Origin: Patescibacteria group bacterium
Lineage (GTDB): Bacteria; Patescibacteriota; UBA1384; JBBRAU01
Assembly (NCBI GenBank): GCA_038206475.1
Contig: JBBRAU010000001.1
Span: 71,235 to 135,234 of the forward strand
Direction of reading: 5' to 3'
Length of the DNA stretch: 64,000 nucleotides
This document shows positions 44,800 to 58,743 of this stretch, piece by piece (the stretch's first letter is position 1; each line of letters begins with the position of its first letter). The position numbers were made by a program, and so were the translations under genes. The notes beneath the pieces were generated by a model. The model had not been told where the DNA came from and ran no database searches. It saw only the letters and a list, made by a program, of their open reading frames with translations.

Positions 44800-44875
44800 G
44801 CGCCTGTAGCTCAGTGGATAGAGCGCTGCCCTCCGAAGGCAGAGGCCACAGGTTCAAGTCCTGTCAGGCGTACCA
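44800..44875 (+). tRNA. tRNA-Arg, anticodon CCG
   Basis: Manual fold: GCGCCTG acceptor, D-arm GCTC/AGTGGATA/GAGC, anticodon stem CTGCC with loop CTCCGAA, T-arm CACAGG/TTCAAGT/CCTGT, CCA encoded. Confidence 0.85.
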
Positions 44876-44921
44876 ACCTAATTCGTTTGGAAAATAAATT
44901 GCGAACTGGGGCAATAACTTT

Positions 44922-46514
44922 GTGAGTACTCATCACCTAAGCAAAAACATGACCAAAGAGCAGGAGCGCACAGAGTTGCACCGTGCTATTTGGCAGATTG
45001 CGAACGATCTGCGCGGAGCAGTGGATGGCTGGGATTTCAAACAGTATGTACTTGGAACGCTTTTTTATCGATTCATTAGCGAGAACTTGACGAACTACAT
45101 CAATGCCGATGAACGTCGCACTGGCAAACAAAATTTTGATTATACAGCGCTTGCCGACGAAGAAGCCGAGTTTGGTCGAGCCGATACGGTGAAAGAAAAA
45201 GGCTTCTATATCTTGCCAAGCGAGCTTTTTGTAAACGTATGCATAAATGCCCGCAGCAACGCCAACCTCAACGAAACGCTTTCTGTTATTTTTCGTAACA
45301 TTGAAAACTCCGCCAAAGGTGCAAGCAGTGAGGATGACCTTCGGGGCCTTTTTGATGACTTAGACGTGAACTCAAGTCGACTCGGAAACACGGTAGAAAC
45401 GAGAAATCGCAAGCTCGCCAAGTTGTTAGAAGCGATCGGCGAGCTTCGCCTCGGTGATTACGCGGATAATACTATTGATGCTTTTGGTGATGCATATGAG
45501 TTCTTGATGACCATGTACGCCTCGACGGCTGGCAAATCCGGAGGCGAATTTTTTACGCCACAGGAGGTCAGCGAGCTCCTCGCTGAAATTACCACTGTCG
45601 GCAAAAAGGAAGTAAACAAAGTTTACGACCCAGCCTGTGGGTCTGGCTCACTGCTCCTCAAATTCGCGAAGGTGTTGGGGCGAGAGAATGTGCGCCAAGG
45701 TTTCTTCGGTCAGGAAATCAATCTTACCACCTATAATCTCTGCCGTATCAACATGTTTCTGCATGATGTGAACTACAACCATTTTGATATTGCTCACGGT
45801 GATACACTTACCGATCCGAAACATTGGGACGACGAGCCGTTTGATGCCATCGTCTCTAATCCGCCTTATTCCATCCACTGGGAAGGTGATGCGGATCCCT
45901 TACTTATCAATGATCCGCGTTTTTCACCGGCCGGAGTGCTGGCACCAAAGAGCAAGGCTGACCTGGCATTTACTATGCACATGCTTTCGTGGCTTTCGAC
46001 CAGCGGCACAGCGGCCATCGTTGAGTTTCCTGGCGTTCTCTATCGCGGTGGTGCGGAGCAAAAAATCCGTAAGTACTTGATAGAGAATAATTACATCGAA
46101 GTCGTCATTCAACTTCCGCCCGATCTCTTTTTCGGCACCACCATTGCCACCTGCGTTATTGTGCTCAAGAAGAGCAAAAAGGACAACAAAACGCTCTTTA
46201 TTGATGCCTCGGCCGAATTTGTACGCAACGGCAATAAAAACAAACTATCACAAGCAAACCGCGCTAAGATTTTAGACGCGTTTACCGCACGCAATGATGC
46301 CGATTACTTTGCCAAATTAGTCGACAATAAAACGATTGCCGAGAATGAGTACAATATTGCCGTATCAAGCTATGTTGTGGCAGAAGACACCCGCGAGGTG
46401 GTGGATATTGCGGTGCTCAATACTGAGATCGCCCGCATTGTTGTGAGGCAGAATGAGCTCCGTACGGCGATTGATAAAATCGTCGTCGATATTGAGGGAA
46501 CAAAAGAACCATGA
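44922..46514 (+). CDS. hsdM: Type I restriction-modification system methyltransferase subunit
   Basis: HsdM N-terminal domain, SAM-binding DPACGSGSLL, catalytic NPPY (VSNPPYSIHW); 530 aa. Confidence 0.9.
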   Translation: MSTHHLSKNMTKEQERTELHRAIWQIANDLRGAVDGWDFKQYVLGTLFYRFISENLTNYINADERRTGKQNFDYTALADEEAEFGRADTVKEKGFYILPSELFVNVCINARSNANLNETLSVIFRNIENSAKGASSEDDLRGLFDDLDVNSSRLGNTVETRNRKLAKLLEAIGELRLGDYADNTIDAFGDAYEFLMTMYASTAGKSGGEFFTPQEVSELLAEITTVGKKEVNKVYDPACGSGSLLLKFAKVLGRENVRQGFFGQEINLTTYNLCRINMFLHDVNYNHFDIAHGDTLTDPKHWDDEPFDAIVSNPPYSIHWEGDADPLLINDPRFSPAGVLAPKSKADLAFTMHMLSWLSTSGTAAIVEFPGVLYRGGAEQKIRKYLIENNYIEVVIQLPPDLFFGTTIATCVIVLKKSKKDNKTLFIDASAEFVRNGNKNKLSQANRAKILDAFTARNDADYFAKLVDNKTIAENEYNIAVSSYVVAEDTREVVDIAVLNTEIARIVVRQNELRTAIDKIVVDIEGTKEP

Positions 46515-47530
46515 AACAGGACGCTCAGAACAATGACATCATCATTTATGAAGGCGAGAACGGCCAGCCGAAAATTGAGGTGCGTGTTGAGGGTGAAACC
46601 GTATGGCTTACTATTGACCAAATGGCCACGTTATTTAACAAAGGACGCTCAACGGTAAATGAGCATATCATCAACATCTATCACGAAAAAGAGCTAGTCG
46701 AGGCTGATTCTGTGAGAAAAATCGGTAATTCCGATTTTTCTACCAAACCCACAAACTACTATAATCTCGACGTTGTCATTTCTGTTGGTTACCGCGTAAG
46801 TTCTGTCCAGGGTACGCGCTTTCGCCAGTGGGCAACCGCACGCCTGCGAGAGTACATCGTCAAAGGCTTCACCATGGACGATGAGCGTCTCAAGAGTTCA
46901 GGTGGCGGAACGTACTGGAAAGAGCTTTTAGAACGCATTCGCGATATTCGGAGCAGCGAGAAGGCCCTTTATCGTCAGGTGTTGGATTTGTATGCGACAA
47001 GTCTAGACTACAACTCAAAAAGCAAAGAAACAGGAGAGTTCTTTAAAACGGTGCAGAACAAACTTCACTACGCCACGAACCAGCAAACTGCCACCGAGCT
47101 TATCCATGCGCGGGCTGATGCTAACAAAGACTTCATGGGACTCACCACCTTTGCCGGAACTATACCTAAGCGATCAGAGGTTTCCATAGCCAAGAATTAT
47201 CTGACCGAAGACGAGCTCTTTCGCCTGAACCGCTTGGTGTCTGCTTTTTTCGACCTTGCTGAAATCAAAGCGCAAGACCATATGCCGATGCATATGAAAG
47301 ACTGGATGGCGGAGCTCGACAAATTTGCTGGGATGTATGGTAAGGGCGTACTGAAAAATGCGGGTGTCGTGAGACATGACGCTGCCATGAAGAAAGCCGA
47401 CCGGGAGTACCGAAAATATCAGGCCAAAACCCTTTCACCCGTTGAAGAAGCATATTTGGCCACGATCAAGGCTTTGCAGAAAAAGGTGGAGAAAAAAGTG
47501 AAAGAGAGCAAGCCAAAGAGTAAAAAGTAA
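46511..47530 (+). CDS. RhuM-family protein embedded in the Type I R-M operon
   Basis: N-terminus DIIIYEGENGQPKIEVRVEGETVWLTIDQMATLFNKGRSTVNEHI resembles the RhuM N-terminal region. Position between hsdM and hsdS, with ATGA overlap to hsdM. Confidence 0.55.
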   Translation: MKQDAQNNDIIIYEGENGQPKIEVRVEGETVWLTIDQMATLFNKGRSTVNEHIINIYHEKELVEADSVRKIGNSDFSTKPTNYYNLDVVISVGYRVSSVQGTRFRQWATARLREYIVKGFTMDDERLKSSGGGTYWKELLERIRDIRSSEKALYRQVLDLYATSLDYNSKSKETGEFFKTVQNKLHYATNQQTATELIHARADANKDFMGLTTFAGTIPKRSEVSIAKNYLTEDELFRLNRLVSAFFDLAEIKAQDHMPMHMKDWMAELDKFAGMYGKGVLKNAGVVRHDAAMKKADREYRKYQAKTLSPVEEAYLATIKALQKKVEKKVKESKPKSKK

Positions 47531-47532
47531 TT

Positions 47533-48672
47533 ATGGCAAAAAATCAAAGCAAAATTGAGAAGCTGATTGCCGAGTACTGTCCCAACGAGGTGGAGTTTAA
47601 AAAGCTCGGAGAGGTCTGTGAAATTACTGATAATAAAAGGAGACCCGTAGCATCGAGTTTACGTGTAGCAGGCAAAATACCATACTATGGTGCAAACAAC
47701 ATACAAGACTATGTTGAAGGTTTCACACATGAAGGTGATTTTGTATTAATTGCTGAGGATGGATCCGCAAACTTAGAAAATTATTCAATCCAGTTTGCGA
47801 CCGGAAAGTTCTGGGCAAATAACCATGTTCATGTTGTTAGAGGATACGATAAATTAAATAATAGGTTTTTATTTCATTATTTAAGAAGCATGAAGTTTAT
47901 TCCATTCTTAACAGGTGGAACTCGTGCAAAGCTTACCAAAAGCAAGATGCTAGAAATAATAATCCCTATTCCGCCGCTTGCGGTGCAGGAGGAGATTGTC
48001 AACATTCTTAATAGCTTTACAGAGCTAGAAGCAGAGCTAGAAGCAGAGCTAGAAGCTAGAAAGATGCAGTACGAGCATTACCGCTCGGCACTTCTGACAT
48101 TTAACGAGGGGGGGGTACGGAGGCCGAGGCTTGATGAAGTATGCCAATCGATTCTCGCAGGCGGAGATTTGCCAGAAAATTATTCGAAGGGTCAAAATAT
48201 GCCAACCCAAGAACTTCCATTCCCCATATATTCAAACGGTTCCGATGATAAAGCGTTGTATGGCTATTCTGATAGCTACAGTATCGGTAGCGAGGCCGTA
48301 ACTATTTCGGCGCGTGGGACCATCGGCTACCACACGGTACGCAAAGCGAAATTCACACCGATTGTTCGTCTCATTACCCTTATTCCCAACACTGAAATTA
48401 TTTCACCAAGGTTTTTAAGCTACGCTCTCGATGTTACTGAAATTGGCCATAGCGGCGGTAGTATTCCACAGTTGACTGTCCCAAATGTCAAAAAAATTCA
48501 AATCCCTGTTCCTGAAATCGCCGAGCAAGAGCGTATCGTGTCTATTTTGGATAAGTTTAATGCACTCGTGAATGACATTTCCGTTGGCCTGCCGGCAGAG
48601 CTTGCTGCGCGTCGGTCGCAATACGAATATTATCGAGGTAAGCTCCTGACATTTAATGAAATGACAGTATGA
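47533..48672 (+). CDS. hsdS: Type I restriction-modification specificity subunit
   Basis: Two target-recognition domains separated and followed by conserved helical repeats (..QYEHYRSALLTFNEG and ..QYEYYRGKLLTFNE). The central region contains an ELEA x3 repeat. Confidence 0.85.
   Translation: MAKNQSKIEKLIAEYCPNEVEFKKLGEVCEITDNKRRPVASSLRVAGKIPYYGANNIQDYVEGFTHEGDFVLIAEDGSANLENYSIQFATGKFWANNHVHVVRGYDKLNNRFLFHYLRSMKFIPFLTGGTRAKLTKSKMLEIIIPIPPLAVQEEIVNILNSFTELEAELEAELEARKMQYEHYRSALLTFNEGGVRRPRLDEVCQSILAGGDLPENYSKGQNMPTQELPFPIYSNGSDDKALYGYSDSYSIGSEAVTISARGTIGYHTVRKAKFTPIVRLITLIPNTEIISPRFLSYALDVTEIGHSGGSIPQLTVPNVKKIQIPVPEIAEQERIVSILDKFNALVNDISVGLPAELAARRSQYEYYRGKLLTFNEMTV
48023..48058 (+). repeat. 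12-bp tandem repeat GAGCTAGAAGCA x3 (encodes ELEA x3) in the hsdS central spacer region
   Basis: Exact tandem copies seen directly in the sequence, inside the central conserved region between TRD1 and TRD2. Confidence 0.85.
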
Positions 48673-49334
48673 ACCAAATTATTTACATCCTCACTAATGA
48701 GTCAATGCCTGAATATATAAAAATCGGGTTTACTCATGGCGAGGTGAACGAAAGAATTAAGCAACTTGACAGAACGGGCGTGCCACTTCCTTTTGAAATT
48801 TACTACGCAGCTACTGTGGAGAATGCAGAGAATGAGGAGAAATGGCTACACTCTATTTTTGCTGACCGTAGAGCGCGCGATAGTCGTGAATTTTTCAGGA
48901 TGAGTCCGGAACACGCAACTCTTGCACTTAAGCGGGTTGAAATTACCGAGGAAAAAATAGAGAACATCCTAACTAAAGAGCAGGAAAAAGAAGTAGACAA
49001 GGCAAAAGAAAGAAGGGCGCGATTTCAGTTTGCTCAGTATGGAATTCCTGTCGGTTCTAAACTGACATTCACTAGAGACGAAGGTATCGTCGCTGAAGTT
49101 GTGGAGAACGATAAAATAAAAATTGGTGACAGCGTAAGCAGCCTATCCACCTGCGCGATGGAGCTGTTGGGGTATCAGAGACGGCCGCAGGGAACCTTAT
49201 ACTTCAAGTTCAAGGACGAGATATTAGATGACAGGCGAAAGAGAATGGATGAGGTGGAACCAACGCCAAAGGGCGTAGAAGCTGCTGGTGATGAGTGGAT
49301 GTCACAACAGGCAGAAATAGAACAAGGAAAATAA
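48669..49334 (+). CDS. T5orf172/GIY-YIG-like domain protein embedded between hsdS and hsdR
   Basis: N-terminus IIYILTNESMPEYIKIGFTHGEVNERIKQLDRTGVPLPFEIYYA fits the T5orf172 (GIY-YIG-like) pattern; 221 aa; ATGA overlap with hsdS. Confidence 0.5.
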   Translation: MNQIIYILTNESMPEYIKIGFTHGEVNERIKQLDRTGVPLPFEIYYAATVENAENEEKWLHSIFADRRARDSREFFRMSPEHATLALKRVEITEEKIENILTKEQEKEVDKAKERRARFQFAQYGIPVGSKLTFTRDEGIVAEVVENDKIKIGDSVSSLSTCAMELLGYQRRPQGTLYFKFKDEILDDRRKRMDEVEPTPKGVEAAGDEWMSQQAEIEQGK

Positions 49335-49335
49335 T

Positions 49336-52300
49336 ATGTCCACTAACAATAAATACCATCTTGTTTCTGAAAATACGCAAAGCACCGTTGTGGCCGAATT
49401 TGCACCAGACGGCGTTCGTGTGGCGCACTATCAAAGCGAAGCAGAACTAGAAAAAGCGCTTATTCAGCAGCTTGAAACACAGGCATATGAATACGTGGCC
49501 ATTGCTACTGAAGCCGACTTGGTGGCGAACCTGAGAAAACAGCTAGAGAAACTGAACAATTTTACGTTTGGCGATAGCGAATGGGAACATTTCTTTACTG
49601 GCGAACTTGCCAACCCGAATCAGAGTATTGAAGAAAAGACAGCGACTATTCAAGAGGACTACATTAAAAACCTTACGCGCGATGACGGCACAATCAAAAA
49701 TGTGTACTTGTTAAAAAAAGACAACATTCATAATAATAGCTTGCAGGTTACCAATCAGTACGCCACAGAAGACGGTATGCGGGCTAATCGCTACGATGTG
49801 ACAGTGCTTGTGAATGGTCTGCCAATGGTGCACATCGAGCTAAAACGGCGCGGTATAGCCATTCAAGAGGCCTTCAATCAGATTAATCGCTATCAGCGCG
49901 AAAGTTTTTGGGCGGCCAGTGGGCTATTCGAATATGTGCAGTTGTTTATTATTTCCAATGGTACTCACACCAAATACTACAGCAACACCACGCGTAAAGA
50001 ACACATTAAAGATGCAAGCGAAGGCGCGGCGAAACAAGGCAAGCGCTCAAGCAACAGTTTTGAATTTACAAACTGGTGGGCCGACGCCACTAACCGGCCA
50101 ATTTCCGATCTAATGGATTTTGCCCAGACCTTTTTTGCCAAACACACGCTTCTTAATATCCTCACTCGTTACTGCGTATTTACGACCGATCGACAGCTTC
50201 TGGTGATGCGCCCATATCAAATTGTGGCAACCGAACGAATACTGAACCGCATTGAGGTGAGTACAAATTATAAGCAGCTCGGCACCATAGAAGCCGGTGG
50301 GTATGTATGGCACACCACTGGGTCAGGGAAAACTCTGACAAGCTTCAAAACAGCCCTACAGGTGAGCAAACTGGCGTATGTAGACAAAGTGGTGTTTGTG
50401 GTTGACCGCAAAGATTTAGACTACCAAACTATGCGCGAATACGACAAGTTCGAGAAAGGCGCAGCCAACAGCAACACCTCGACGGCGGTATTAAAACGAC
50501 AGTTGGAAAATCCGCAAGCCCGAATCATTATCACAACCATTCAAAAGCTCGATCATTTCGTAAGCCGCAACGCCGGACACCGTATTTTTGACGGTCACGT
50601 CGTACTTATTTTTGACGAATGCCATCGCTCACAGTTTGGTGATATGCACGCCGCAATCACAAAGGCCTTCAAGAATTACCACATTTTCGGTTTTACGGGC
50701 ACGCCAATTTTTGCGGTCAACGCGTCCTCTGGAGGCCGTCCAGATTTCAAAACGACCGAGCAGGCCTTTGGCGATAAATTGCACACGTACACCATTGTAG
50801 ACGCGATTGCCGACAAAAATGTTCTACCGTTTAAGGTGGATTATGTTTCTACGGTTCGTGAAGCCGAGGATATTGAAGATAAAAAAGTAAGCGATATTGA
50901 TCGCGAGGCAGTGCTCGCTTCTCCAGAGCGTCTGGCGAATATTGTCGGTTATATTCGTGAGCATTTTGATCAAAAAACGAAGCGCAATAGCTTCTACAAA
51001 CTGAAAGACCGGCGGTTGGCCGGCTTTAATTCTCTCTTTGCCGTTTCGTCAATTGATGTCGCTAAGAAGTACTATGTTGAGTTCAAGCGTCAGCTCGCCG
51101 ACGCGCCAAGTGATAAGCGTCTCAAAATAGCGACCATATTCAGCTTTGGTGTCAATGACGATGATGCCGACGGTATGCTAGATGAAAACTCAGATGACAC
51201 GAGCGGGCTAGACGCAAGTTCACGGGACTTTTTGGAACATGCTATCGCTGACTATAATGCGATTTTTGGGACTTCGTACGACACGTCGTCCGACAAATTT
51301 TCCAATTATTACAAAGATGTGAGCTTGCGCGTTAAAGGCCGCGAGATTGATATTTTGATCGTCGTCAACATGTTTTTAACTGGCTTTGATGCAACAACGC
51401 TTAACACACTCTGGGTTGATAAAAACTTGCGACTTCACGGCCTATTGCAAGCTTTCTCGCGGACAAACCGTATTCTCAACAGCGTAAAGACTTTTGGCCA
51501 TATCGTGTGCTTCCGCAATTTAGAAAAGGCAACGAATGAATCAATTGCGCTTTTTGGTGATAAAGAAGCCAGAGGCGTTGTATTGCTAAAATCATATGCT
51601 GAATACTACGGGGGTTACGTGCACGGTGATAAGGCGGTGCTTGGCTATGCAAATCTCGTCGCTGAGCTGCTTGAGAAGTATCCTATTGGGCAGGCTATTA
51701 TTGGCGAACAAAGTCAAAAGCATTTTATCAGACTATATGGCGCAATTTTGCGTGTGCGGAACATTTTGACGACATTTGATGAATTTGTGGGCAACGAAAT
51801 TTTGACCGCGCGTGATGTGCAAGACTACCACAGCATGTACATTGACCTCTATAACGAATTTAGCAAAGGCGTGGAAGACGACAAAGAGAACATTATCGAT
51901 GACGTCGTATTTGAGATGGAACTGATCAAACAGATTGAAATAAATATTGACTACATTTTGGGGCTCATCAAACACTATCATGAAGATCATACTCAAAACC
52001 GTGAGCTTTTGGCGGATATCAACAAAGCAATCGACTCAAGTATTGAACTGCGAAACAAAAAGGATCTTATTAATCAATTTATTTTATCGCTCGACATACA
52101 CTCAGTGGTTGATGATGATTGGCAGAAGTTTGTCAACCAGAAAAAGACGGAAGAACTTGAGCAAATTATTGAGACCGAAGGGCTGGATCGCGATGCCACC
52201 TATACGTTTGTGCGAAACGCCTTCCGCGACGGAGGCGTAATGGTGACCGGCACAGACATCTCTCGTGTTCTGCCTCCGGTATCTCGCTTTTTAGCAACCG

Positions 52301-52395
52301 GCGAGCGTTCTGAGAAACGCAATAGCGTGCTCAATAAATTAACGAGTTTCTTTGAGCGATTCTTCGATATCTCCGGCGGTTCATTCACGGACTAG
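49336..52395 (+). CDS. hsdR: Type I restriction endonuclease R subunit
   Basis: N-terminal nuclease domain, DEAD-box helicase motifs (TGSGKTLT, DECHRSQ), 1019 aa. Confidence 0.9.
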   Translation: MSTNNKYHLVSENTQSTVVAEFAPDGVRVAHYQSEAELEKALIQQLETQAYEYVAIATEADLVANLRKQLEKLNNFTFGDSEWEHFFTGELANPNQSIEEKTATIQEDYIKNLTRDDGTIKNVYLLKKDNIHNNSLQVTNQYATEDGMRANRYDVTVLVNGLPMVHIELKRRGIAIQEAFNQINRYQRESFWAASGLFEYVQLFIISNGTHTKYYSNTTRKEHIKDASEGAAKQGKRSSNSFEFTNWWADATNRPISDLMDFAQTFFAKHTLLNILTRYCVFTTDRQLLVMRPYQIVATERILNRIEVSTNYKQLGTIEAGGYVWHTTGSGKTLTSFKTALQVSKLAYVDKVVFVVDRKDLDYQTMREYDKFEKGAANSNTSTAVLKRQLENPQARIIITTIQKLDHFVSRNAGHRIFDGHVVLIFDECHRSQFGDMHAAITKAFKNYHIFGFTGTPIFAVNASSGGRPDFKTTEQAFGDKLHTYTIVDAIADKNVLPFKVDYVSTVREAEDIEDKKVSDIDREAVLASPERLANIVGYIREHFDQKTKRNSFYKLKDRRLAGFNSLFAVSSIDVAKKYYVEFKRQLADAPSDKRLKIATIFSFGVNDDDADGMLDENSDDTSGLDASSRDFLEHAIADYNAIFGTSYDTSSDKFSNYYKDVSLRVKGREIDILIVVNMFLTGFDATTLNTLWVDKNLRLHGLLQAFSRTNRILNSVKTFGHIVCFRNLEKATNESIALFGDKEARGVVLLKSYAEYYGGYVHGDKAVLGYANLVAELLEKYPIGQAIIGEQSQKHFIRLYGAILRVRNILTTFDEFVGNEILTARDVQDYHSMYIDLYNEFSKGVEDDKENIIDDVVFEMELIKQIEINIDYILGLIKHYHEDHTQNRELLADINKAIDSSIELRNKKDLINQFILSLDIHSVVDDDWQKFVNQKKTEELEQIIETEGLDRDATYTFVRNAFRDGGVMVTGTDISRVLPPVSRFLATGERSEKRNSVLNKLTSFFERFFDISGGSFTD

Positions 52396-52505
52396 CCAAA
52401 GTCACCATACGTAAATGGCAAGAGTAGGGTTTGGGCATCTTGGAAAAATAGCTACTCTAAAGCGCGTTTTTTGACACTCTGCTCGCGCCTTGCTTGAGTG
52501 AAGTT

Positions 52506-55451
52506 ATGCCAGACGACCTCGTTCAACAAGTAAAGCAACGCCTTGACATCCTTGACTTGGTCCAAGGCTATGTTCAGTTGAAAAAAACCGGCATTAACTG
52601 GAAGGGCCTCTGCCCGTTCCACCAAGAGAAAACGCCGTCGTTTACCGTCAACCAAGAACGTCAGAGCTGGCACTGTTTTGGCTGCTTCCCGAAGGGTTCT
52701 CATGTAAAAACTCCAAGAGGTTTTTGCGATATTGACCAACTTCGAGCAGGAGACGTTGTTATCTCGGGGAAAGGGCAGGAAAAGTCCGTACTCACGACGC
52801 ATCGTCATATGTATAAGGGCGAGCTCGTCCGTATTTCTTTATGCAAGCTTGGTGGCGAAGTGGCGCTAACCGGGGATCATAAAGTATTCGCTTTACGCGG
52901 AGCGCCTTACACCAAAATCTATAAAAACTTCAGCCGACGCTTGAAGCGCTACCAACAACTGCCAGCGGACCAATATCGACAAAAGCTCGACCGCTACTTC
53001 CCTGTCGAAAAAGTGGAGGCACACGAGTTAACGATTGGCGATTTGTTATTATATCCAATCTCCTACAGGACCGAACCAATCTCTTCGCTAGTCCCTTGTG
53101 ACCATTTAACAAAAACATTCCGTCTTGGGCCGAAACCGAGTGATTTACCAAAAGAGCTCCCGATTACTGACAGTCTACTGAAATTACTCGGATACTATAT
53201 TGCTGAGGGTAGTAACCATCGTGCCTACATTCGATTTAGCCTCGGTGGCCATGAGCTGAAACTCGCTAAAGAGATTCAAGTCTTGCTCAAAGAAGTGTTT
53301 GGCCTGGTCTCTAGCATCCACGTTCGCCAAGGAGGCAAGCCCGGGATAGAGGTTACGTGCTGTCACGCTGCGCTAGCCGATATTTTTGGCAACTTGTGTG
53401 GCAAAGGGGCGGCCAATAAACACATCCCTTTTGAGCTTCGGCACTTGCCAGTAGGCCAACAGCAGGTGCTGCTTAACGCCATCTGGACGGGTGACGGTAC
53501 TGCTCGTGCTAAACATCGGTCACTTAAAATTGAACGCTCAATCGGCAGTATTTCGCAGACACTGGCCGAGCAAATAGTTGATATCTTGCTGCGCAGGCAT
53601 ATCTTTCCCTCGCTTCAGGTTATCCAAGCACATACGAGCGGCGATGGCGTCAAACACAGAATGGCCTACACTGTTGTTTGGGGAGAGGCTGGTGAGGATA
53701 AATACAATAGTGTCTACCAAGCGGCGGGCGGTACTCATTATTGGGTGTTGCCAGTTGTCCATATAGCAAAAGAACCCTTCTGCGACGAGGTGTTCAACCT
53801 GACGATTGAGGATGACCATTCGTATGTCGCGCGCAATTTCGCGGTTGCCAACTGCGGCGAGGGCGGGGACATTTTTACCTTTGTCGAAAAGATTGAACAC
53901 GTTGAATTTAAAGAGGCGCTGGAGCTGCTGGCTGGCCGGGTTGGGCTGGAGGTCAAACCGCAAACGCCGGTTGAGCGTCAGCAGAAGGGCGAAAAGGCGA
54001 AACTTGAGGAGCTATACCAGCTGGCCAGCCGCTTCTACCACGCGTTGCTCATTAACCATCCGCTTGGCCAAGCTGCCCGCGATTACCTCGCCAAGCGGGG
54101 TGTTTCAGCTGAGTCGGTCAAAGCGTGGCAATTGGGTGTGGCGCCCGACCACTGGGACGCCCTGCTCTCGGCACTGCAAAAGCGCGGTTTCACGGCCGAT
54201 GAGTTGGTCAAGGCCGGATTGGCCGTCAAAAATGAGCGCGGCAACATTTATGACCGCTTTCGGAACCGCTTGTTGTTCCCGATTATCACCGCCAGCGGCC
54301 AACCGGTCGCTTTCTCTGGCCGGGTGATAACGGCTGATCAAGAACCCAAATACTTAAACTCGCCTGAGAGCCTGCTCTATCGCAAGAGCAGTGTTGTGAT
54401 GGGACTGAATTTAGCCAAAGAGGCAATTCGGAAGGCCGGCCAAGTAATGGTGGTCGAAGGCAATTTAGATGTCCTTATTTGCCAGCAGTTTGGCCTGACC
54501 AACACCGTCGCTACCGGCGGCACGGCGCTAACGTCTGACCACCTGCGCTTACTGGCTCGCTACGCCCCAGTCGTTATTTTTGCCTTTGATGCGGACGCCG
54601 CCGGCCAGAAAGCGGCTGAAAAGGCGGCGCTGTTGGCGCTAGAGGTGGGCCTGGAGCCACGCTTCATTGCCTTGCCGGCCGGAGATGACCCAGACTCGCT
54701 GCTACGCCGGGATGAAGCCGCCTTCCGCCAGGCTATGGCTGCCGCTCTGCCGGCCGTGCCGTACTTTTTAGAACGGGCGCTCAATGAGTATGGCCAGGCT
54801 ACCGCACAAGCCAAAAAGCAGGTGGCGGCAGCGGTGGTGCCGTTGCTCCGCCGCATACACGATCCAGTCGAGCAGGCGGATTCATTGCAGCAGGTGGCCG
54901 ACCGACTGCATGTGCCACGAGAGGCCATAGAGAGTGCTGTTTCAGCTGAGACGAAGGCAAAAACGACCGTTCCGGTGGTAGCGGCGACCGCCCGCCGCGG
55001 TCCGCTCGAGCCAAGCCAGCGCTTGTTTGGCCTGCTGCTGCTCTCGGAACGGCCACTGCCACCGCTTGACCCACTGCTACAGGATAGTCCAGACAAAACG
55101 CTGCAGTTTTTGCAGGCTCGGCAGGCAGAGGGGATTGGCGACAAGATGAGTTGGGCGACGTGGCAGGCCAAGCAACCGCAGCCAATCCAGGCGCGTTTGG
55201 CCTCACTGCTGACCGTGGCGGCCGAAGCCTACGGTGAGTTGCCACAGGAGCAGTTCGAGGCTGAAATTACGCTGCTTTTGGCGGCGCTGCGTTCCCGGGT
55301 TCTTGAGCACCAGCAATCGGACCGCCAGGCCGAAATTCGGCTGGCCGAGCAGGCGGGCGACAAGGCGCGCGTACGCTCACTGCTGCAAGAGATGATGGAT
55401 GATTTGGTCATGCCCCCACCGGCCAGCGCGGATCCTCGTCAAAAAACATAA
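52506..55451 (+). CDS. dnaG: DNA primase DnaG interrupted by an intein
   Basis: Zinc ribbon CPFHQEKTPSF..WHCFG. The extein resumes CGEGGDIFTFV. TOPRIM (VVEGNLDVL) and a C-terminal helicase-binding domain are present. Start taken at ATG 52506 (MPDDLVQQVK); the ORF-track 52494 is TTG. Confidence 0.85.
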   Translation: MPDDLVQQVKQRLDILDLVQGYVQLKKTGINWKGLCPFHQEKTPSFTVNQERQSWHCFGCFPKGSHVKTPRGFCDIDQLRAGDVVISGKGQEKSVLTTHRHMYKGELVRISLCKLGGEVALTGDHKVFALRGAPYTKIYKNFSRRLKRYQQLPADQYRQKLDRYFPVEKVEAHELTIGDLLLYPISYRTEPISSLVPCDHLTKTFRLGPKPSDLPKELPITDSLLKLLGYYIAEGSNHRAYIRFSLGGHELKLAKEIQVLLKEVFGLVSSIHVRQGGKPGIEVTCCHAALADIFGNLCGKGAANKHIPFELRHLPVGQQQVLLNAIWTGDGTARAKHRSLKIERSIGSISQTLAEQIVDILLRRHIFPSLQVIQAHTSGDGVKHRMAYTVVWGEAGEDKYNSVYQAAGGTHYWVLPVVHIAKEPFCDEVFNLTIEDDHSYVARNFAVANCGEGGDIFTFVEKIEHVEFKEALELLAGRVGLEVKPQTPVERQQKGEKAKLEELYQLASRFYHALLINHPLGQAARDYLAKRGVSAESVKAWQLGVAPDHWDALLSALQKRGFTADELVKAGLAVKNERGNIYDRFRNRLLFPIITASGQPVAFSGRVITADQEPKYLNSPESLLYRKSSVVMGLNLAKEAIRKAGQVMVVEGNLDVLICQQFGLTNTVATGGTALTSDHLRLLARYAPVVIFAFDADAAGQKAAEKAALLALEVGLEPRFIALPAGDDPDSLLRRDEAAFRQAMAAALPAVPYFLERALNEYGQATAQAKKQVAAAVVPLLRRIHDPVEQADSLQQVADRLHVPREAIESAVSAETKAKTTVPVVAATARRGPLEPSQRLFGLLLLSERPLPPLDPLLQDSPDKTLQFLQARQAEGIGDKMSWATWQAKQPQPIQARLASLLTVAAEAYGELPQEQFEAEITLLLAALRSRVLEHQQSDRQAEIRLAEQAGDKARVRSLLQEMMDDLVMPPPASADPRQKT
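52683..53852 (+). mobile_element. Intein (390 aa) with LAGLIDADG homing endonuclease inserted in the DnaG zinc-binding motif
   Basis: Begins with Cys right after HCFG (CFPKGSHVKT..) and has a block-B-like TGDH. Two LAGLIDADG-like motifs are LLGYYIAEGS and LLNAIWTGDG. It ends ..DDHSYVARNFAVAN followed by extein Cys. Removing it restores HCFGCGEGGD. Confidence 0.7.
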
Positions 55452-57021: not shown

Positions 57022-58743
57022 TTATCCGAAGGTGAAGGCAAAAGCCTCAATGCTTGGACTTTCGAAGATAAGGGTAAGGACGTGCCAGTCTCCCGCAGTC
57101 TTCAAATGAATTAGGTGGTACAGTCGATCTTCGGAAATCTGGAAGTTGCCATTTTTGACGTCGGCTCCGCCCGAAGCACCCGCTGCCTTGCCATCAAGCA
57201 GTACCCGCACGGTGGCGGAAACGCCGTTTTGCGGCTTCATAACCAAATAAACGTCTTTACCGGTAAAATGGAATGAGAGCGAATCTCCGGATGCGCTGGA
57301 AGTAATAGAGTCGGTTCCGCTTTGCCAGTTTCCAGAAAGGCCCCATTCGTTATTGCCAAGTTTCAGCGGATTAGTTTCCGATGAGTACCTATCCCGGCGC
57401 GCCAAACCCAAATAGGTTTCTGGAGACTGCTGTTCATGGGGAGTGGTATCGGACAGCTTTGGTGCCATGGAGGGCAGGGCGGAAACCTTGGCCTCTTTCA
57501 GAAGTGAGCGGATGTTGGCCTCAGTTTCGTCATAATTTCCCTCGCCGAAATGGGTAGCCCGCACCTGCCCCTTGGCGTCAATCAGGTACTCGGCCGGCCA
57601 ATACTGGTTGTCGTAGGCTTTCCACGTAGCAAAGTCATTGTCCTGGGCTACCGGATAGTGAATTGCGTACTGCTTGATGGCCGCTGCAAGGTTTTTGCTC
57701 TCCTTTTCGAAGGCGAACTCTGGTGAGTGTACACCCACCACCACAAAGCCCTGATCTTTGTAGGTATCGTACCAGTTGGTTATGTGTGGAAGGGTTCTAA
57801 TGCAGTTAATGCAGGAATAGGTCCAGAAATCGACCAATACTACCTTGCCTCTCAGACTTTCTACAGTGAGTGGCTTACTATTCAGCCAGCCGGTGATGCC
57901 GGAGAATTCGGGAGCTTTCCCCAGCACTGGCAGGCCTGAGGAGGCTCCGTTGATGATTTGTGAAGTGCTGGGCATGGCATTGTCGTCATTACTTTTTAAT
58001 TTTTTCAACTGACCTTTCACCAAATCGCCTTGCTCCAACTGCTGGGTTAAGCCGGAGCTAATGCTGCTTGGCAGCTTGGCCAATAAACTCGTTTGTAGCG
58101 TTCGGTCAAGGCCGAAGAGCATTGCAATTGCCGTGAACACCATGATGGCTCCAAACACCATTTGTACTTTTGGTATTGACTTATTGACTGAGCGCATGCG
58201 GCGCAATAAGCCTTGGCCGCCGTAGGTAAGAATCAAAAGCGGAATGCTAACGCCCAGCGCGTAGGCCTCGGTAATTAAAACTGAAGCAAGGGTTACAGTG
58301 CTGGAAGCGGCCAAGGATATAACTGAGGCGACAATAGGCCCAACGCAAGGCGTCCACACTAAGCCAAGGCTGACGCCAATAACGAATCCGCCTAAAAAAT
58401 CGCTGCGCTTGGAATCTATTTTCACCTGAGGAATACGGCTGCTCACCCAAGCTTCAAACGCCGCAAGCAATTTGGGCACGAGAAGCATGACGCCAAAAAC
58501 CAGAATTACGATGATGGCGAATAAGCGAAGGCCATCAGGGCTTATCCCCAGATGCCGTGTTAGCCAGCTAAGAGAAAGGGTAAAAAAGGTAAAGCTCAAG
58601 ACCAGCCCGGTTACAATACCAAGAGGCCGTTGTTTGCCGCCGCTAATCCCGGCTGAAAGCACTATCGGTAGGACCGGCAGGATGCAAGGGGCGAATATGG
58701 TGGCAATTCCGGCCAGGAACGCGAAAAGGATAAGTAAGGGCAT
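57022..58743 (-). CDS. Thiol:disulfide interchange protein: DsbD/CcdA-like transmembrane domain fused to a thioredoxin-like (TlpA/ResA) domain
   Basis: N-terminal polytopic region with conserved Cys pair (FAPCILPVLP). Periplasmic redoxin domain with WTYSCINC (CxxC). 573 aa. Confidence 0.65.
   Translation of the reverse strand: MPLLILFAFLAGIATIFAPCILPVLPIVLSAGISGGKQRPLGIVTGLVLSFTFFTLSLSWLTRHLGISPDGLRLFAIIVILVFGVMLLVPKLLAAFEAWVSSRIPQVKIDSKRSDFLGGFVIGVSLGLVWTPCVGPIVASVISLAASSTVTLASVLITEAYALGVSIPLLILTYGGQGLLRRMRSVNKSIPKVQMVFGAIMVFTAIAMLFGLDRTLQTSLLAKLPSSISSGLTQQLEQGDLVKGQLKKLKSNDDNAMPSTSQIINGASSGLPVLGKAPEFSGITGWLNSKPLTVESLRGKVVLVDFWTYSCINCIRTLPHITNWYDTYKDQGFVVVGVHSPEFAFEKESKNLAAAIKQYAIHYPVAQDNDFATWKAYDNQYWPAEYLIDAKGQVRATHFGEGNYDETEANIRSLLKEAKVSALPSMAPKLSDTTPHEQQSPETYLGLARRDRYSSETNPLKLGNNEWGLSGNWQSGTDSITSSASGDSLSFHFTGKDVYLVMKPQNGVSATVRVLLDGKAAGASGGADVKNGNFQISEDRLYHLIHLKTAGDWHVLTLIFESPSIEAFAFTFG

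What the first reader, a model, noticed from the sequence alone, without database searches (positions are those of the whole stretch)
52683..53852. DnaG primase carries a 390-aa intein with LAGLIDADG homing endonuclease; the penultimate His is replaced (ends AN)
The intein splits the primase zinc-binding motif between HCFG and CGEGGD. It has an N-terminal Cys, a block-B-like TGDH, two LAGLIDADG-like motifs, and a C-terminal ...NFAVAN followed by Cys. Its GC content is visibly lower than that of the dnaG extein, consistent with invasion. The Ala at the penultimate position (normally His) may slow or alter C-terminal cleavage.
Basis: partly seen in the sequence, partly recalled or inferred. Interest (0 to 1): 0.55.

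Follow-up and report, generated by a model that had tools for sequence, protein, structure and literature searches.

The report
Self-splicing intein inside primase zinc finger
The DNA primase gene is interrupted by a real, intact self-splicing protein element (an intein with a homing endonuclease) that belongs to a family common in ultra-small "CPR" bacteria, and its odd-looking Ala-Asn ending is the normal state for that family, not a defect.

Summary
The dnaG ORF (52494/52506..55451, +) carries an in-frame 390-codon insert at 52683..53852. It begins with Cys, ends Ala-Asn, and is followed by Cys. It sits between Gly63 and Cys64 of the CHC2 zinc ribbon, so the +1 nucleophile is the fourth zinc ligand.

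It is a canonical class 1 intein with a nested LAGLIDADG endonuclease:
- AlphaFold2 model: pLDDT 90.
- Foldseek matches over the full length to TliVMA, PI-SceI, PI-PkoII and PI-PfuI (E down to 4.5e-21).

It is not a one-off. In species-representative genomes, 75 loci carry an intact homologue (36-52% identity, 382-396 aa) at exactly this DnaG site. Most are Patescibacteria/CPR, with some Omnitrophota and Armatimonadota.

Across 76 members:
- Cys1, the block B Thr and His, the terminal Asn and Cys+1 are invariant.
- The penultimate residue is never His (Gly 37, Ala 23, Ser 15, Asn 1).
- A block F His is kept in 75 of 76.
- Both endonuclease acidic residues are kept in 75 of 76 or more.

The "AN" ending is therefore a family trait. 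It has a well-studied precedent in the Ssp DnaE intein, and nothing here suggests impaired splicing. The GC argument for invasion is weak. The closest DnaG relatives are intein-free.

Verdict: an ordinary new member of a known kind, at an insertion site I could not find described in the searched papers. Zinc- or redox-conditional splicing is an untested possibility.

The parts
52494..55451 (+). dnaG precursor ORF (985 codons from TTG 52494; the gene call starts at ATG 52506 and gives 981 aa; stop codon at 55449-55451)
   Evidence: ORF list. TIGR01391 dnaG E 1e-122; Pfam Zn_ribbon_DnaG, DNAG_N, Toprim and DnaB_bind. P0019 is an identical 981-aa protein in public data.
52494..52682 (+). N-extein: the first part of the CHC2 zinc ribbon, carrying ligands Cys40 (52611-52613), His43 (52620-52622) and Cys61 (52674-52676). 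It ends at Gly63 (the -1 residue).
   Evidence: Gap-free alignment to the 1D0Q DnaG zinc-binding domain with identical numbering; codons checked. The assignment of zinc ligands in 1D0Q comes from established knowledge (Pan & Wigley 2000).
52683..53852 (+). Intein, 390 aa, class 1, with a nested LAGLIDADG endonuclease
   Evidence: Translation. AF2 model pLDDT 90.2, pTM 0.90. Foldseek full-length matches to the TliVMA, PI-SceI, PhoVMA, PI-PkoII and PI-PfuI inteins. 75 homologues at the same site.
52683..52685 (+). Cys1, the nucleophile for the N-S acyl shift (block A)
   Evidence: Cys in 76 of 76 family members.
52869..52880 (+). Block B T-G-D-H (Thr63 and His66 of the intein)
   Evidence: Thr and His are invariant in 76 of 76; codons checked.
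52899..53147 (+). Variable helical/beta insert (intein residues about 73-155) between the N-terminal Hint half and the endonuclease. Possibly a DNA-recognition region, as in PI-SceI.
   Evidence: AF2 secondary structure. It is the least conserved segment of the family. The role is inferred only.
53148..53612 (+). LAGLIDADG homing endonuclease domain (intein residues about 156-310). Motif 1 LKLLGYYIAEGS is at 53178-53213 (Glu175); motif 2 LLNAIWTGDGT is at 53469-53501 (Asp271).
   Evidence: Pfam LAGLIDADG_3 E 2.6e-10. PI-PkoII alignment. I-DmoI fold matches. Glu175 kept in 75 of 76 and Asp271 in 76 of 76. It is the most conserved part of the family.
53787..53831 (+). Block F EVFNLTIEDDHSYVA. 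F:4 is Asn372 (non-canonical; usually Asp). The block F His is His379.
   Evidence: Family counts: F:4 is Asn in 69 and Asp in 7; the block F His is present in 75 of 76. The usual F:4 residues are given in PMC4031507.
53832..53852 (+). Block G RNFAVAN: penultimate Ala389 and terminal Asn390 (succinimide formation)
   Evidence: Asn in 76 of 76. Penultimate residue Gly 37, Ala 23, Ser 15, Asn 1, His 0.
53853..53855 (+). Cys+1. It is both the transesterification nucleophile and Cys64, the fourth zinc ligand of the mature DnaG zinc ribbon.
   Evidence: Cys in all 75 related loci; numbering from the alignment to 1D0Q.
53853..55448 (+). C-extein: the rest of the zinc-binding domain, the primase core (DNAG_N), Toprim, and the DnaB-binding C-terminal region
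   Evidence: Pfam and NCBIfam hits.

Best explanation
Residues encoded by 52683-53852 form a functional class 1 intein with an embedded LAGLIDADG homing endonuclease. It sits in the chromosomal dnaG of a bacterium whose DnaG is closest to Patescibacteria/CPR homologues.

Inferred mechanism:
1. The 981/985-aa precursor is translated.
2. Cys1 performs an N-S acyl shift, assisted by block B Thr63 and His66.
3. Cys+1 attacks the thioester.
4. Asn390 cyclises to release the intein. With no penultimate His, this step is presumably assisted by the block F His379, as proposed for other inteins that lack the penultimate His.
5. An S-N shift then seals Gly63 to Cys64.

Only this last step brings the third and fourth zinc ligands (Cys61, Cys64) back to their native CxxC spacing, so it yields an active primase zinc ribbon. 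The free intein is probably a site-specific endonuclease that cuts intein-less dnaG alleles at the highly conserved HCFG|CGxGGD coding sequence and spreads by homing.

Shown here: the anatomy, the fold, the family, the conservation pattern and the empty sites. Inferred: splicing competence, the role of His379, and endonuclease activity.
For: Anatomy and boundaries.

Fold: AF2 pLDDT 90.2, with full-length Foldseek matches to HEN-containing inteins at E 4.5e-21 to 8.8e-11.

Sequence: LAGLIDADG_3 above the Pfam cut-off and PI-PkoII at E 1e-8.

Same-site family:
- 17 protein clusters.
- 75 species-representative genomes. All copies are intact, in a single frame, 382-396 aa long.
- About 25 clusters at 50% identity in 1.84 billion representative proteins.

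Selection on splicing residues: Cys1, Thr, His, Asn and Cys+1 are invariant in 76 of 76, and the block F His is present in 75 of 76. This is expected only if splicing is required, which fits an essential gene.

Selection on the endonuclease:
- Both acidic residues are kept.
- The HEN domain is the most conserved segment (50 of 155 positions at 90% or more, against 11 of 72 and 11 of 45 for the two Hint halves).

Mobility:
- 119 of 120 best DnaG homologues are intein-free.
- Inteins are more alike than their host primase cores (48% against 41%). Some pairs reach 62-73% intein identity with 34-46% extein identity. The correlation with host divergence is only moderate (Spearman 0.37).

Precedent for splicing without a penultimate His: the Ssp DnaE intein ends AAN; the relevant papers are cited.
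Against: - No experiment: neither splicing nor endonuclease activity has been shown for any member of this family.
- Two canonical assisting residues are absent together. The penultimate His is missing, and F:4 is Asn rather than Asp. I know of no characterised intein with that combination, so the catalytic details are conjecture.
- Pfam and NCBIfam Hint/intein splicing models score below their curated cut-offs. The Hint assignment therefore rests on the predicted structure and on motif positions.
- The window does not show whether the genome has a second, uninterrupted dnaG.
Confidence: 0.85

Rival explanations
1. Conditional (zinc- or redox-gated) splicing. Cys+1 and Cys-3 are zinc ligands of the host domain, and Cys1 lies between them. 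The precursor could bind Zn2+ or form a disulfide at the splice junction. Primase maturation, and hence lagging-strand priming, would then be throttled by zinc or redox status. On this view the intein is retained partly as a regulator.
For: - The insertion point is exactly between zinc ligands 3 and 4.
- The site and the Cys-rich junction CFG|C...N|C are invariant across 75 genomes.
- Zinc reversibly inhibits splicing of the mycobacterial DnaB intein in vivo (PMC7360933) and of the Ssp DnaE intein (papers cited in PMC4031507).
- The inteins are more conserved than the host primase core.
Against: - Nothing has been tested directly.
- Inteins generally sit in conserved ligand-binding motifs simply because those make good homing targets.
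- The strong conservation of the endonuclease domain is what ordinary homing predicts and needs no regulatory role.
- The sporadic distribution, with the closest relatives intein-free, argues against an indispensable function.
Confidence: 0.15
2. A decaying or splicing-impaired intein. Loss of the penultimate His, together with Asn at F:4, cripples Asn cyclisation. The gene would then yield little mature primase or be on its way to becoming a pseudogene. This is the direction the first reader suggested.
For: - The penultimate His normally assists Asn cyclisation, and F:4 is normally Asp (PMC4031507).
- Some inteins lacking this His splice better when it is restored (PMC5050341 discussion).
Against: - 0 of 76 family members have the His, yet all are intact ORFs with invariant nucleophiles.
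- The ORF has no stop or frameshift.
- The Ssp DnaE intein splices naturally with a penultimate Ala.
- A phage intein with a penultimate Gly spliced more slowly after the G-to-H change.
- dnaG is essential.
Confidence: 0.05
3. Not an intein, but a lineage-specific DnaG insertion domain without a Hint fold.
For: The Hint/intein splicing profile HMMs score below their curated thresholds.
Against: - The predicted structure matches whole HEN-inteins (TliVMA, PI-SceI, PI-PkoII, PI-PfuI), with alignments of about 430-600 columns.
- Cys1, TxxH and Asn|Cys sit at exactly the expected positions and are invariant.
- Removing the insert restores a gap-free zinc-ribbon alignment to 1D0Q.
- Almost all DnaG homologues lack the insert.
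Confidence: 0.01

Closest known systems
Archaeal and yeast LAGLIDADG-containing class 1 inteins with solved structures (TliVMA and PhoVMA inteins 7QSU/7QSS/7QST, PI-SceI 1VDE, PI-PkoII 2CW7, PI-PfuI 1DQ3)
   Same: - The overall two-part architecture: a Hint splicing domain split by a LAGLIDADG endonuclease.
- Cys1, block B TxxH, terminal Asn, and two LAGLIDADG motifs each with an acidic residue.
- Best fold matches and the best sequence match in the PDB (PI-PkoII).
   Different: - Only 14-17% sequence identity.
- Different host proteins (V-ATPase, DNA polymerase, RNR).
- This family replaces the penultimate His with Gly, Ala or Ser, and the F:4 Asp with Asn.
Ssp/Npu DnaE split inteins (for example 1ZD7, 1ZDE)
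   Same: - Class 1, Cys1/Cys+1 chemistry in a replication protein.
- No penultimate His: Ssp ends ...AIAAN|CFN.
- A 'DH' His in block F seven residues after F:4 (IFDIGLPQDHNF against VFNLTIEDDHSY).
- Known zinc sensitivity (titles cited).
   Different: - The DnaE inteins are naturally split, have no endonuclease, and keep Asp at F:4.
- There is no detectable close homology. The resemblance is in the catalytic solution, not in family membership.
DnaG / TOPRIM-primase inteins already catalogued (14 DnaG inteins in Actinobacteria and Proteobacteria, Novikova et al. 2016, PMC4760082; TOPRIM primase inteins of mycobacteriophages, PMC5050341)
   Same: The host protein family is the same (COG0358 DNA primase), so DnaG is already known as an intein host.
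   Different: - The reported taxa do not include Patescibacteria or Omnitrophota.
- The phage examples are drawn in the TOPRIM domain, not the zinc ribbon.
- I could not read the supplementary insertion-site tables. Whether the G63|C64 zinc-ribbon site has been listed before is therefore not established.
SufB inteins of Bipolaricaulota/Armatimonadota (L080, L081, L083-L085)
   Same: - The nearest non-DnaG relatives found in the genome scan: 29-31% identity over the full length.
- The same LAGLIDADG motif 1, and Asn at F:4 (VFNLDVEG).
   Different: - The host is SufB (HYIEG|C...HN|CTAP).
- They keep the canonical penultimate His and lack the block F His (EGPSSY).

Membership tests
Class 1 intein | N-terminal nucleophile (Cys/Ser) at position 1 | tested here: met
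   Cys1 at 52683-52685; 76 of 76 in the family.
Class 1 intein | Block B Thr-x-x-His | tested here: met
   TGDH at intein residues 63-66. Thr and His are invariant in 76 of 76.
Class 1 intein | C-terminal Asn followed by Cys/Ser/Thr at +1 | tested here: met
   ...VAN|C. Asn and Cys+1 are invariant in the family.
Class 1 intein | Penultimate His (G:6). This is typical but not obligatory. | tested here: not met
   Ala389 here; 0 of 76 family members have His. Exceptions that still splice are known: Ssp DnaE ends AAN, and see Chen et al. 2000 as cited. This does not bar membership.
Class 1 intein | Block F with Asp at F:4 and a His. This is typical but not obligatory. | tested here: inconclusive
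   The His is present (His379; 75 of 76). F:4 is Asn rather than Asp (Asn 69, Asp 7). The usual residues are Asp, then Cys, then Trp (PMC4031507).
Class 1 intein | Hint (Hedgehog/intein) fold with adjacent N- and C-termini | tested here: met
   AF2 model pLDDT 90. Foldseek matches include the Hint halves of TliVMA, PI-SceI and PI-PkoII, and a BIL domain, 2LWY. This is a prediction, not an experimental structure. The Pfam Hint models score below their cut-offs.
Class 1 intein | In-frame insertion in a conserved host protein, with removal restoring the host sequence; intein-free alleles exist | tested here: met
   The spliced product aligns without gaps to 1D0Q. 119 of 120 best DnaG hits are intein-free.
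Class 1 intein | Autocatalytic protein splicing | not testable with these tools
   This needs expression and SDS-PAGE or mass spectrometry. Here it is only inferred from conservation.
Class 3 intein (considered and rejected) | No position-1 nucleophile, plus the Trp-Cys-Thr triplet (B:12, F:4, G:5) | tested here: not met
   Cys1 is present, F:4 is Asn, and G:5 is Val.
LAGLIDADG homing endonuclease (single-chain, two-motif) | Two LAGLIDADG helices, each ending in a catalytic Asp/Glu | tested here: met
   LKLLGYYIAEG (Glu175) and LLNAIWTGDG (Asp271). Pfam PF14528 E 2.6e-10, above the cut-off. Conserved in 75 of 76 and 76 of 76. Fold matches to I-DmoI.
LAGLIDADG homing endonuclease (single-chain, two-motif) | Site-specific cleavage of the intein-less allele | not testable with these tools
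   This needs an in vitro cleavage assay on the empty dnaG site.

The most novel reading that the evidence does not exclude
The intein is a zinc/redox-responsive switch on primase. Its +1 nucleophile is the fourth zinc ligand, and Cys-3 is the third ligand. The precursor junction (Cys-3, Cys1, Cys+1) could chelate Zn2+ or form a disulfide and stall splicing. In these CPR bacteria, primase maturation and therefore replication would then be coupled to metal or redox state. That would explain why the family is more conserved than its host primase core and is always full-length. A side possibility: the CFGGCSEGGD zinc-ribbon variant in the two closest intein-free relatives is a homing-immune allele.
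Probability: 0.12. Interest if true: 0.6.

Novelty: new member of a known kind. Interest (0 to 1): 0.3.

Why it matters
For annotation, the gene should be called as an intein-containing dnaG. Public records for homologues label it 'hypothetical protein', 'CHC2 zinc finger domain-containing protein' or 'LAGLIDADG family homing endonuclease'.

Biologically, it adds a well-populated intein allele to the set of replisome inteins:
- at least 75 species-level genomes;
- at the zinc ribbon of DnaG;
- mostly in Patescibacteria, a group for which I found no paper on inteins in the searched library.

The family is also a natural data set of 76 diverged inteins that all lack the penultimate His and mostly have Asn at F:4. 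That could be useful for understanding alternative ways of catalysing Asn cyclisation, and as a source of new splicing or endonuclease tools. The zinc-ligand +1 Cys makes it a reasonable candidate for conditional splicing studies.

None of this overturns current understanding.

Tried and rejected
- Intein search against 5.8 billion proteins. It did not list the window's own protein, P0019. That protein appeared only in the extein search and the representatives search.
- Genome scan with the 12-sequence intein alignment A3. It failed for lack of a sufficiently conserved stretch. It worked after reducing the alignment to 5 complete inteins (A4).
- Supplementary tables of Novikova et al. 2016 are not held, so I could not compare the insertion sites of the 14 DnaG inteins they list.
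- Literature searches for inteins in CPR/Patescibacteria returned nothing relevant.
The host is called Patescibacteria-like only from the names carried by other DnaG homologues.
- The IMG/VR scan found only one weak hit at 25% identity, so the sampled viral contigs give no support for a phage vector.
- The GC-based invasion argument was examined and downgraded.
- Class 3 intein, BIL domain and 'non-Hint insertion domain' were all considered and rejected on motifs and fold.
- I did not model the whole precursor. The tools return no coordinates, so zinc-site geometry could not be measured.
Full report
**1. Checking the observation**

The window holds one uninterrupted ORF at 52494..55451 on the + strand (985 codons from TTG). 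The public gene call, P0019 (981 aa), starts at ATG 52506.

Translation of 52683..53852 gives exactly 390 residues, CFPKGSHVKTPRG...DDHSYVARNFAVAN. They are preceded by ...NQERQSWHCFG and followed by CGEGGDIFTF. Deleting them leaves a 595-aa protein that:
- scores E 1e-122 against TIGR01391 (dnaG);
- has the full Zn_ribbon_DnaG / DNAG_N / Toprim / DnaB_bind domain order.

Its first 97 residues align without a gap, and with identical numbering, to the crystal structure of the B. stearothermophilus DnaG zinc-binding domain, 1D0Q (E 2e-29). In that numbering the CHC2 ligands are Cys40, His43, Cys61 and Cys64 (ligand identity from established knowledge of 1D0Q). The insert therefore lies between Gly63 and Cys64. 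It separates zinc ligands 3 and 4, and the residue after the insert (Cys+1) is itself ligand 4.

A Logan assembly contig from run SRR19962014 is base-for-base identical over 7459 bp spanning the whole gene, so the structure is not an assembly artefact.

**2. What the insert is**

By sequence:
- The insert matches Pfam LAGLIDADG_3 above its curated cut-off (E 2.6e-10).
- It matches the Hint and intein splicing models only below their cut-offs.
- The best solved relative is the intein endonuclease PI-PkoII (E 1e-8).

By structure:
- An AlphaFold2 model built on 17 homologues is confident (mean pLDDT 90.2, pTM 0.90).
- Foldseek against the PDB returns, over essentially its full length, the HEN-containing inteins TliVMA (E 4.5e-21), PI-SceI, PhoVMA, PI-PkoII and PI-PfuI. 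Free-standing I-DmoI-type LAGLIDADG enzymes then match the middle domain.

- Cys1;
- block B TGDH (residues 63-66);
- LKLLGYYIAEGS (166-177, acidic Glu175);
- LLNAIWTGDGT (263-273, acidic Asp271);
- block F EVFNLTIEDDHSYVA;
- block G RNFAVAN, then Cys+1.

It has a position-1 nucleophile and no Trp-Cys-Thr triplet, so it is a class 1 intein.

**3. It belongs to a sizeable family at the same site**

| Search | Result |
|---|---|
| 5.8 billion proteins, intein as query | 17 clusters at 39-52% identity, every one inside a CHC2 DnaG N-terminus. Those named by their sources are Patescibacteria-type lineages (Colwell- and Magasanikbacteria, Minisyncoccia) or Omnitrophota. |
| One genome per GTDB species, intein-only alignment | 106 confirmed loci, of which the best 80 were returned |
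| 1.84 billion 50%-identity representatives | About 25 clusters with the intein at residues ~58-61 to ~445-453 of ~930-1020-aa proteins |
| IMG/VR viral contigs | One weak hit (25% identity) |

I re-derived the junctions of the 80 returned loci with tblastn:
- 75 carry the element at the identical position, [H/K/Y]CFG | C...N | C(G/x)xGGD.
- Each of these is a single in-frame block of 382-396 codons with no stop.
- They are 36.5-52% identical to the window's intein.

Going by record titles, the hosts are mainly CPR lineages: Levy-, Davies-, Woese-, Collier-, Shapiro-, Chisholm-, Magasanik-, Moran-, Harrison-, Colwell-, Nealson- and Berkelbacteria, plus many 'Saccharibacteria' or 'Patescibacteria group' MAGs. 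A few are Omnitrophota, and one is an Armatimonadetes MAG (CSP1-3). Some automated labels, such as 'uncultured Gammaproteobacteria', may not be reliable.

The other five loci are SufB inteins (29-31% identity) in Bipolaricaulota and Armatimonadota.

**4. The penultimate residue**

Counts across the 76 same-site inteins:

| Position | Residues found |
|---|---|
| Cys1 | 76/76 |
| Block B Thr | 76/76 |
| Block B His | 76/76 |
| Terminal Asn | 76/76 |
| Cys+1 | 76/76 (all 75 loci plus the window) |
| Penultimate (G:6) | Gly 37, Ala 23, Ser 15, Asn 1, His 0 |
| Block F His (His379 here) | 75/76 |
| F:4 | Asn 69, Asp 7 |

So "AN" is not a lesion of this allele. It is how the whole family is built, in an essential gene, with every nucleophile under absolute conservation. 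That pattern is what selection for splicing predicts.

There are precedents:
- The naturally splicing Ssp DnaE intein ends ...GAIAAN|CFN and has the same 'DH' in block F (verified against PDB chains 1ZD7/1ZDE).
[quoted passage not shown] 2005.
- Kelley et al. 2016 (PMC5050341) found that changing a native penultimate Gly to His slowed splicing of a phage intein. They also note that a block F His can take over the role.

The real kinetic effect cannot be determined without an experiment.

What is mildly unusual is the combination of no penultimate His with Asn at F:4. The usual F:4 residues are Asp, then Cys, then Trp.

**5. The endonuclease and mobility**

Evidence on the endonuclease:
- Both LAGLIDADG acidic residues are conserved (Glu175 in 75/76, Asp271 in 76/76).
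- The endonuclease domain is the best-conserved part of the family. 50 of 155 positions are at least 90% conserved, against 11 of 72 and 11 of 45 in the two Hint halves.
- No mini-intein was seen among the 75 genomes. One metagenomic protein, P0010, has lost the second motif.

Evidence on occupancy:
- Of the 120 best DnaG homologues of the spliced protein, only the window's own protein carries the intein (lengths 516-716 aa).
- The two closest relatives (57-58% identity; groundwater metagenomes) are intein-free.

Evidence on transfer:
- Pairwise, inteins are more similar than the first 340 residues of their C-exteins (48% against 41%; intein identity is higher in 88% of pairs).
- The correlation between the two is only moderate (Pearson 0.57, Spearman 0.37).
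- Some pairs are 62-73% identical in the intein but only 34-46% in the extein.

This is the picture expected of an active homing element with a mix of vertical descent, loss and lateral transfer. It does not prove activity.

**6. The GC argument**

- Intein GC is 0.493, the C-extein 0.600, and the 189-bp N-extein 0.492. GC3 values are 0.51, 0.67 and 0.60 respectively.
- 22.6% of all 1170-bp windows in the 64 kb are at or below the intein's GC.
- The region immediately upstream is a low-GC type I restriction-modification island.
- In 59 of 68 family members the intein has lower GC than its C-extein (mean -5.7 points). The family median intein GC is 0.34.

The window's intein, at 0.49, has moved most of the way towards its 0.53-0.60 host, and its nearest known relative is only 52% identical. 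The lower GC is therefore real relative to the C-extein. It is better read as a family-wide compositional property plus incomplete amelioration than as evidence of recent invasion.

**7. Mechanism**

The best-supported account (confidence about 0.85) is standard class 1 splicing:
1. Cys1 N-S acyl shift, assisted by Thr63 and His66.
2. Transesterification to Cys+1.
3. Asn390 cyclisation, presumably assisted by His379 in place of the missing penultimate His.
4. S-N shift joining Gly63 to Cys64.

Splicing restores the CxxC half of the zinc ribbon, so mature primase function should depend on it. The excised 44-kDa protein is probably a site-specific endonuclease for the empty HCFG|CGxGGD coding sequence.

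Shown here: anatomy, predicted fold, family, conservation and empty sites. Inferred: catalysis, the role of His379, and endonuclease activity.

**8. Rivals**

- A crippled intein is unlikely (0.05), given section 4.
- A non-intein domain is excluded (0.01).
- The most interesting open alternative is conditional splicing. The junction carries Cys-3 (ligand 3), Cys1 and Cys+1 (ligand 4). Zinc reversibly inhibits the mycobacterial DnaB intein in vivo (PMC7360933) and the Ssp DnaE intein (titles cited). I rate this at about 0.12-0.15. Insertion in a conserved ligand motif is what homing alone predicts, and the closest relatives do without the intein.

**9. Comparison with what is known, and novelty**

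DnaG is already a listed intein host. Novikova et al. 2016 count 14 DnaG inteins in Actinobacteria and Proteobacteria, and mycobacteriophage TOPRIM primases carry inteins.

I found no paper in the searchable library on inteins in CPR/Patescibacteria. No NCBIfam 'intein-containing DnaG' model hit the protein. I could not read the earlier insertion-site tables.

The element is thus a new member of a known kind. It represents an apparently uncatalogued but conventional allele family at the DnaG zinc ribbon. Interest is modest (0.3). The finding is correct and tidy, and its one supposedly odd feature turns out to be normal for its family.

Noticed in passing
window 44800-52395: A type I restriction-modification cluster sits directly between tRNA-Arg(ccg) (44800-44875) and dnaG. 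It comprises hsdM, a RhuM-family gene, hsdS, a T5orf172/MUG113 gene and hsdR. GC in sliding windows over the part profiled (50000-52395, i.e. hsdR) is about 0.38-0.49, against a window mean of 0.53. It looks like a tRNA-adjacent genomic island, and it confounds any GC comparison around the dnaG 5' end.
   Followed up: partly
L002 6001-7758 and L005 241-2079 (the closest intein-free dnaG relatives): Both have the zinc ribbon CFGGCSEGGD (CxxxC), with an extra GGC codon exactly at the intein insertion point, where the window has CFG|CGEGGD. Only 4 of the 119 intein-free top DnaG hits have CxxxC spacing. This could be a homing-immune allele or be unrelated; it was not tested.
   Followed up: partly
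L081 and L085 (also L080, L083; L084 has one intein): The SufB genes of Bipolaricaulota and Armatimonadota MAGs carry two inteins each. The first (HYIEG|C...HN|CTAP) is the nearest non-DnaG relative of the DnaG intein found by the scan (29-31% identity). It keeps the canonical penultimate His but lacks the block F His.
   Followed up: partly
P0010 (metagenomic DnaG fragment, alignment A3 columns ~255-285): This family member has a roughly 31-residue deletion that removes the second LAGLIDADG motif. It is the only sign of endonuclease decay seen in the family.
   Followed up: no
75 DnaG-intein loci L006-L079, L082: The endonuclease domain is more conserved than the splicing domain. The inteins as a whole are more similar to each other (mean 48%) than the host primase cores are (41%). 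That is unexpectedly strong constraint for a selfish element.
   Followed up: partly
P0154 (3308 aa), P0163 (2602 aa), P0208 (3297 aa): Very long proteins match the intein in up to 8 separate stretches, which suggests multi-intein hosts. They were not examined.
   Followed up: no
window 57022-58743 (-): A DsbD-like transmembrane domain is fused to AhpC/TSA-redoxin and thioredoxin-like domains. It lies just downstream of rpoD and tRNA-Asn. It is unrelated to the finding.
   Followed up: no
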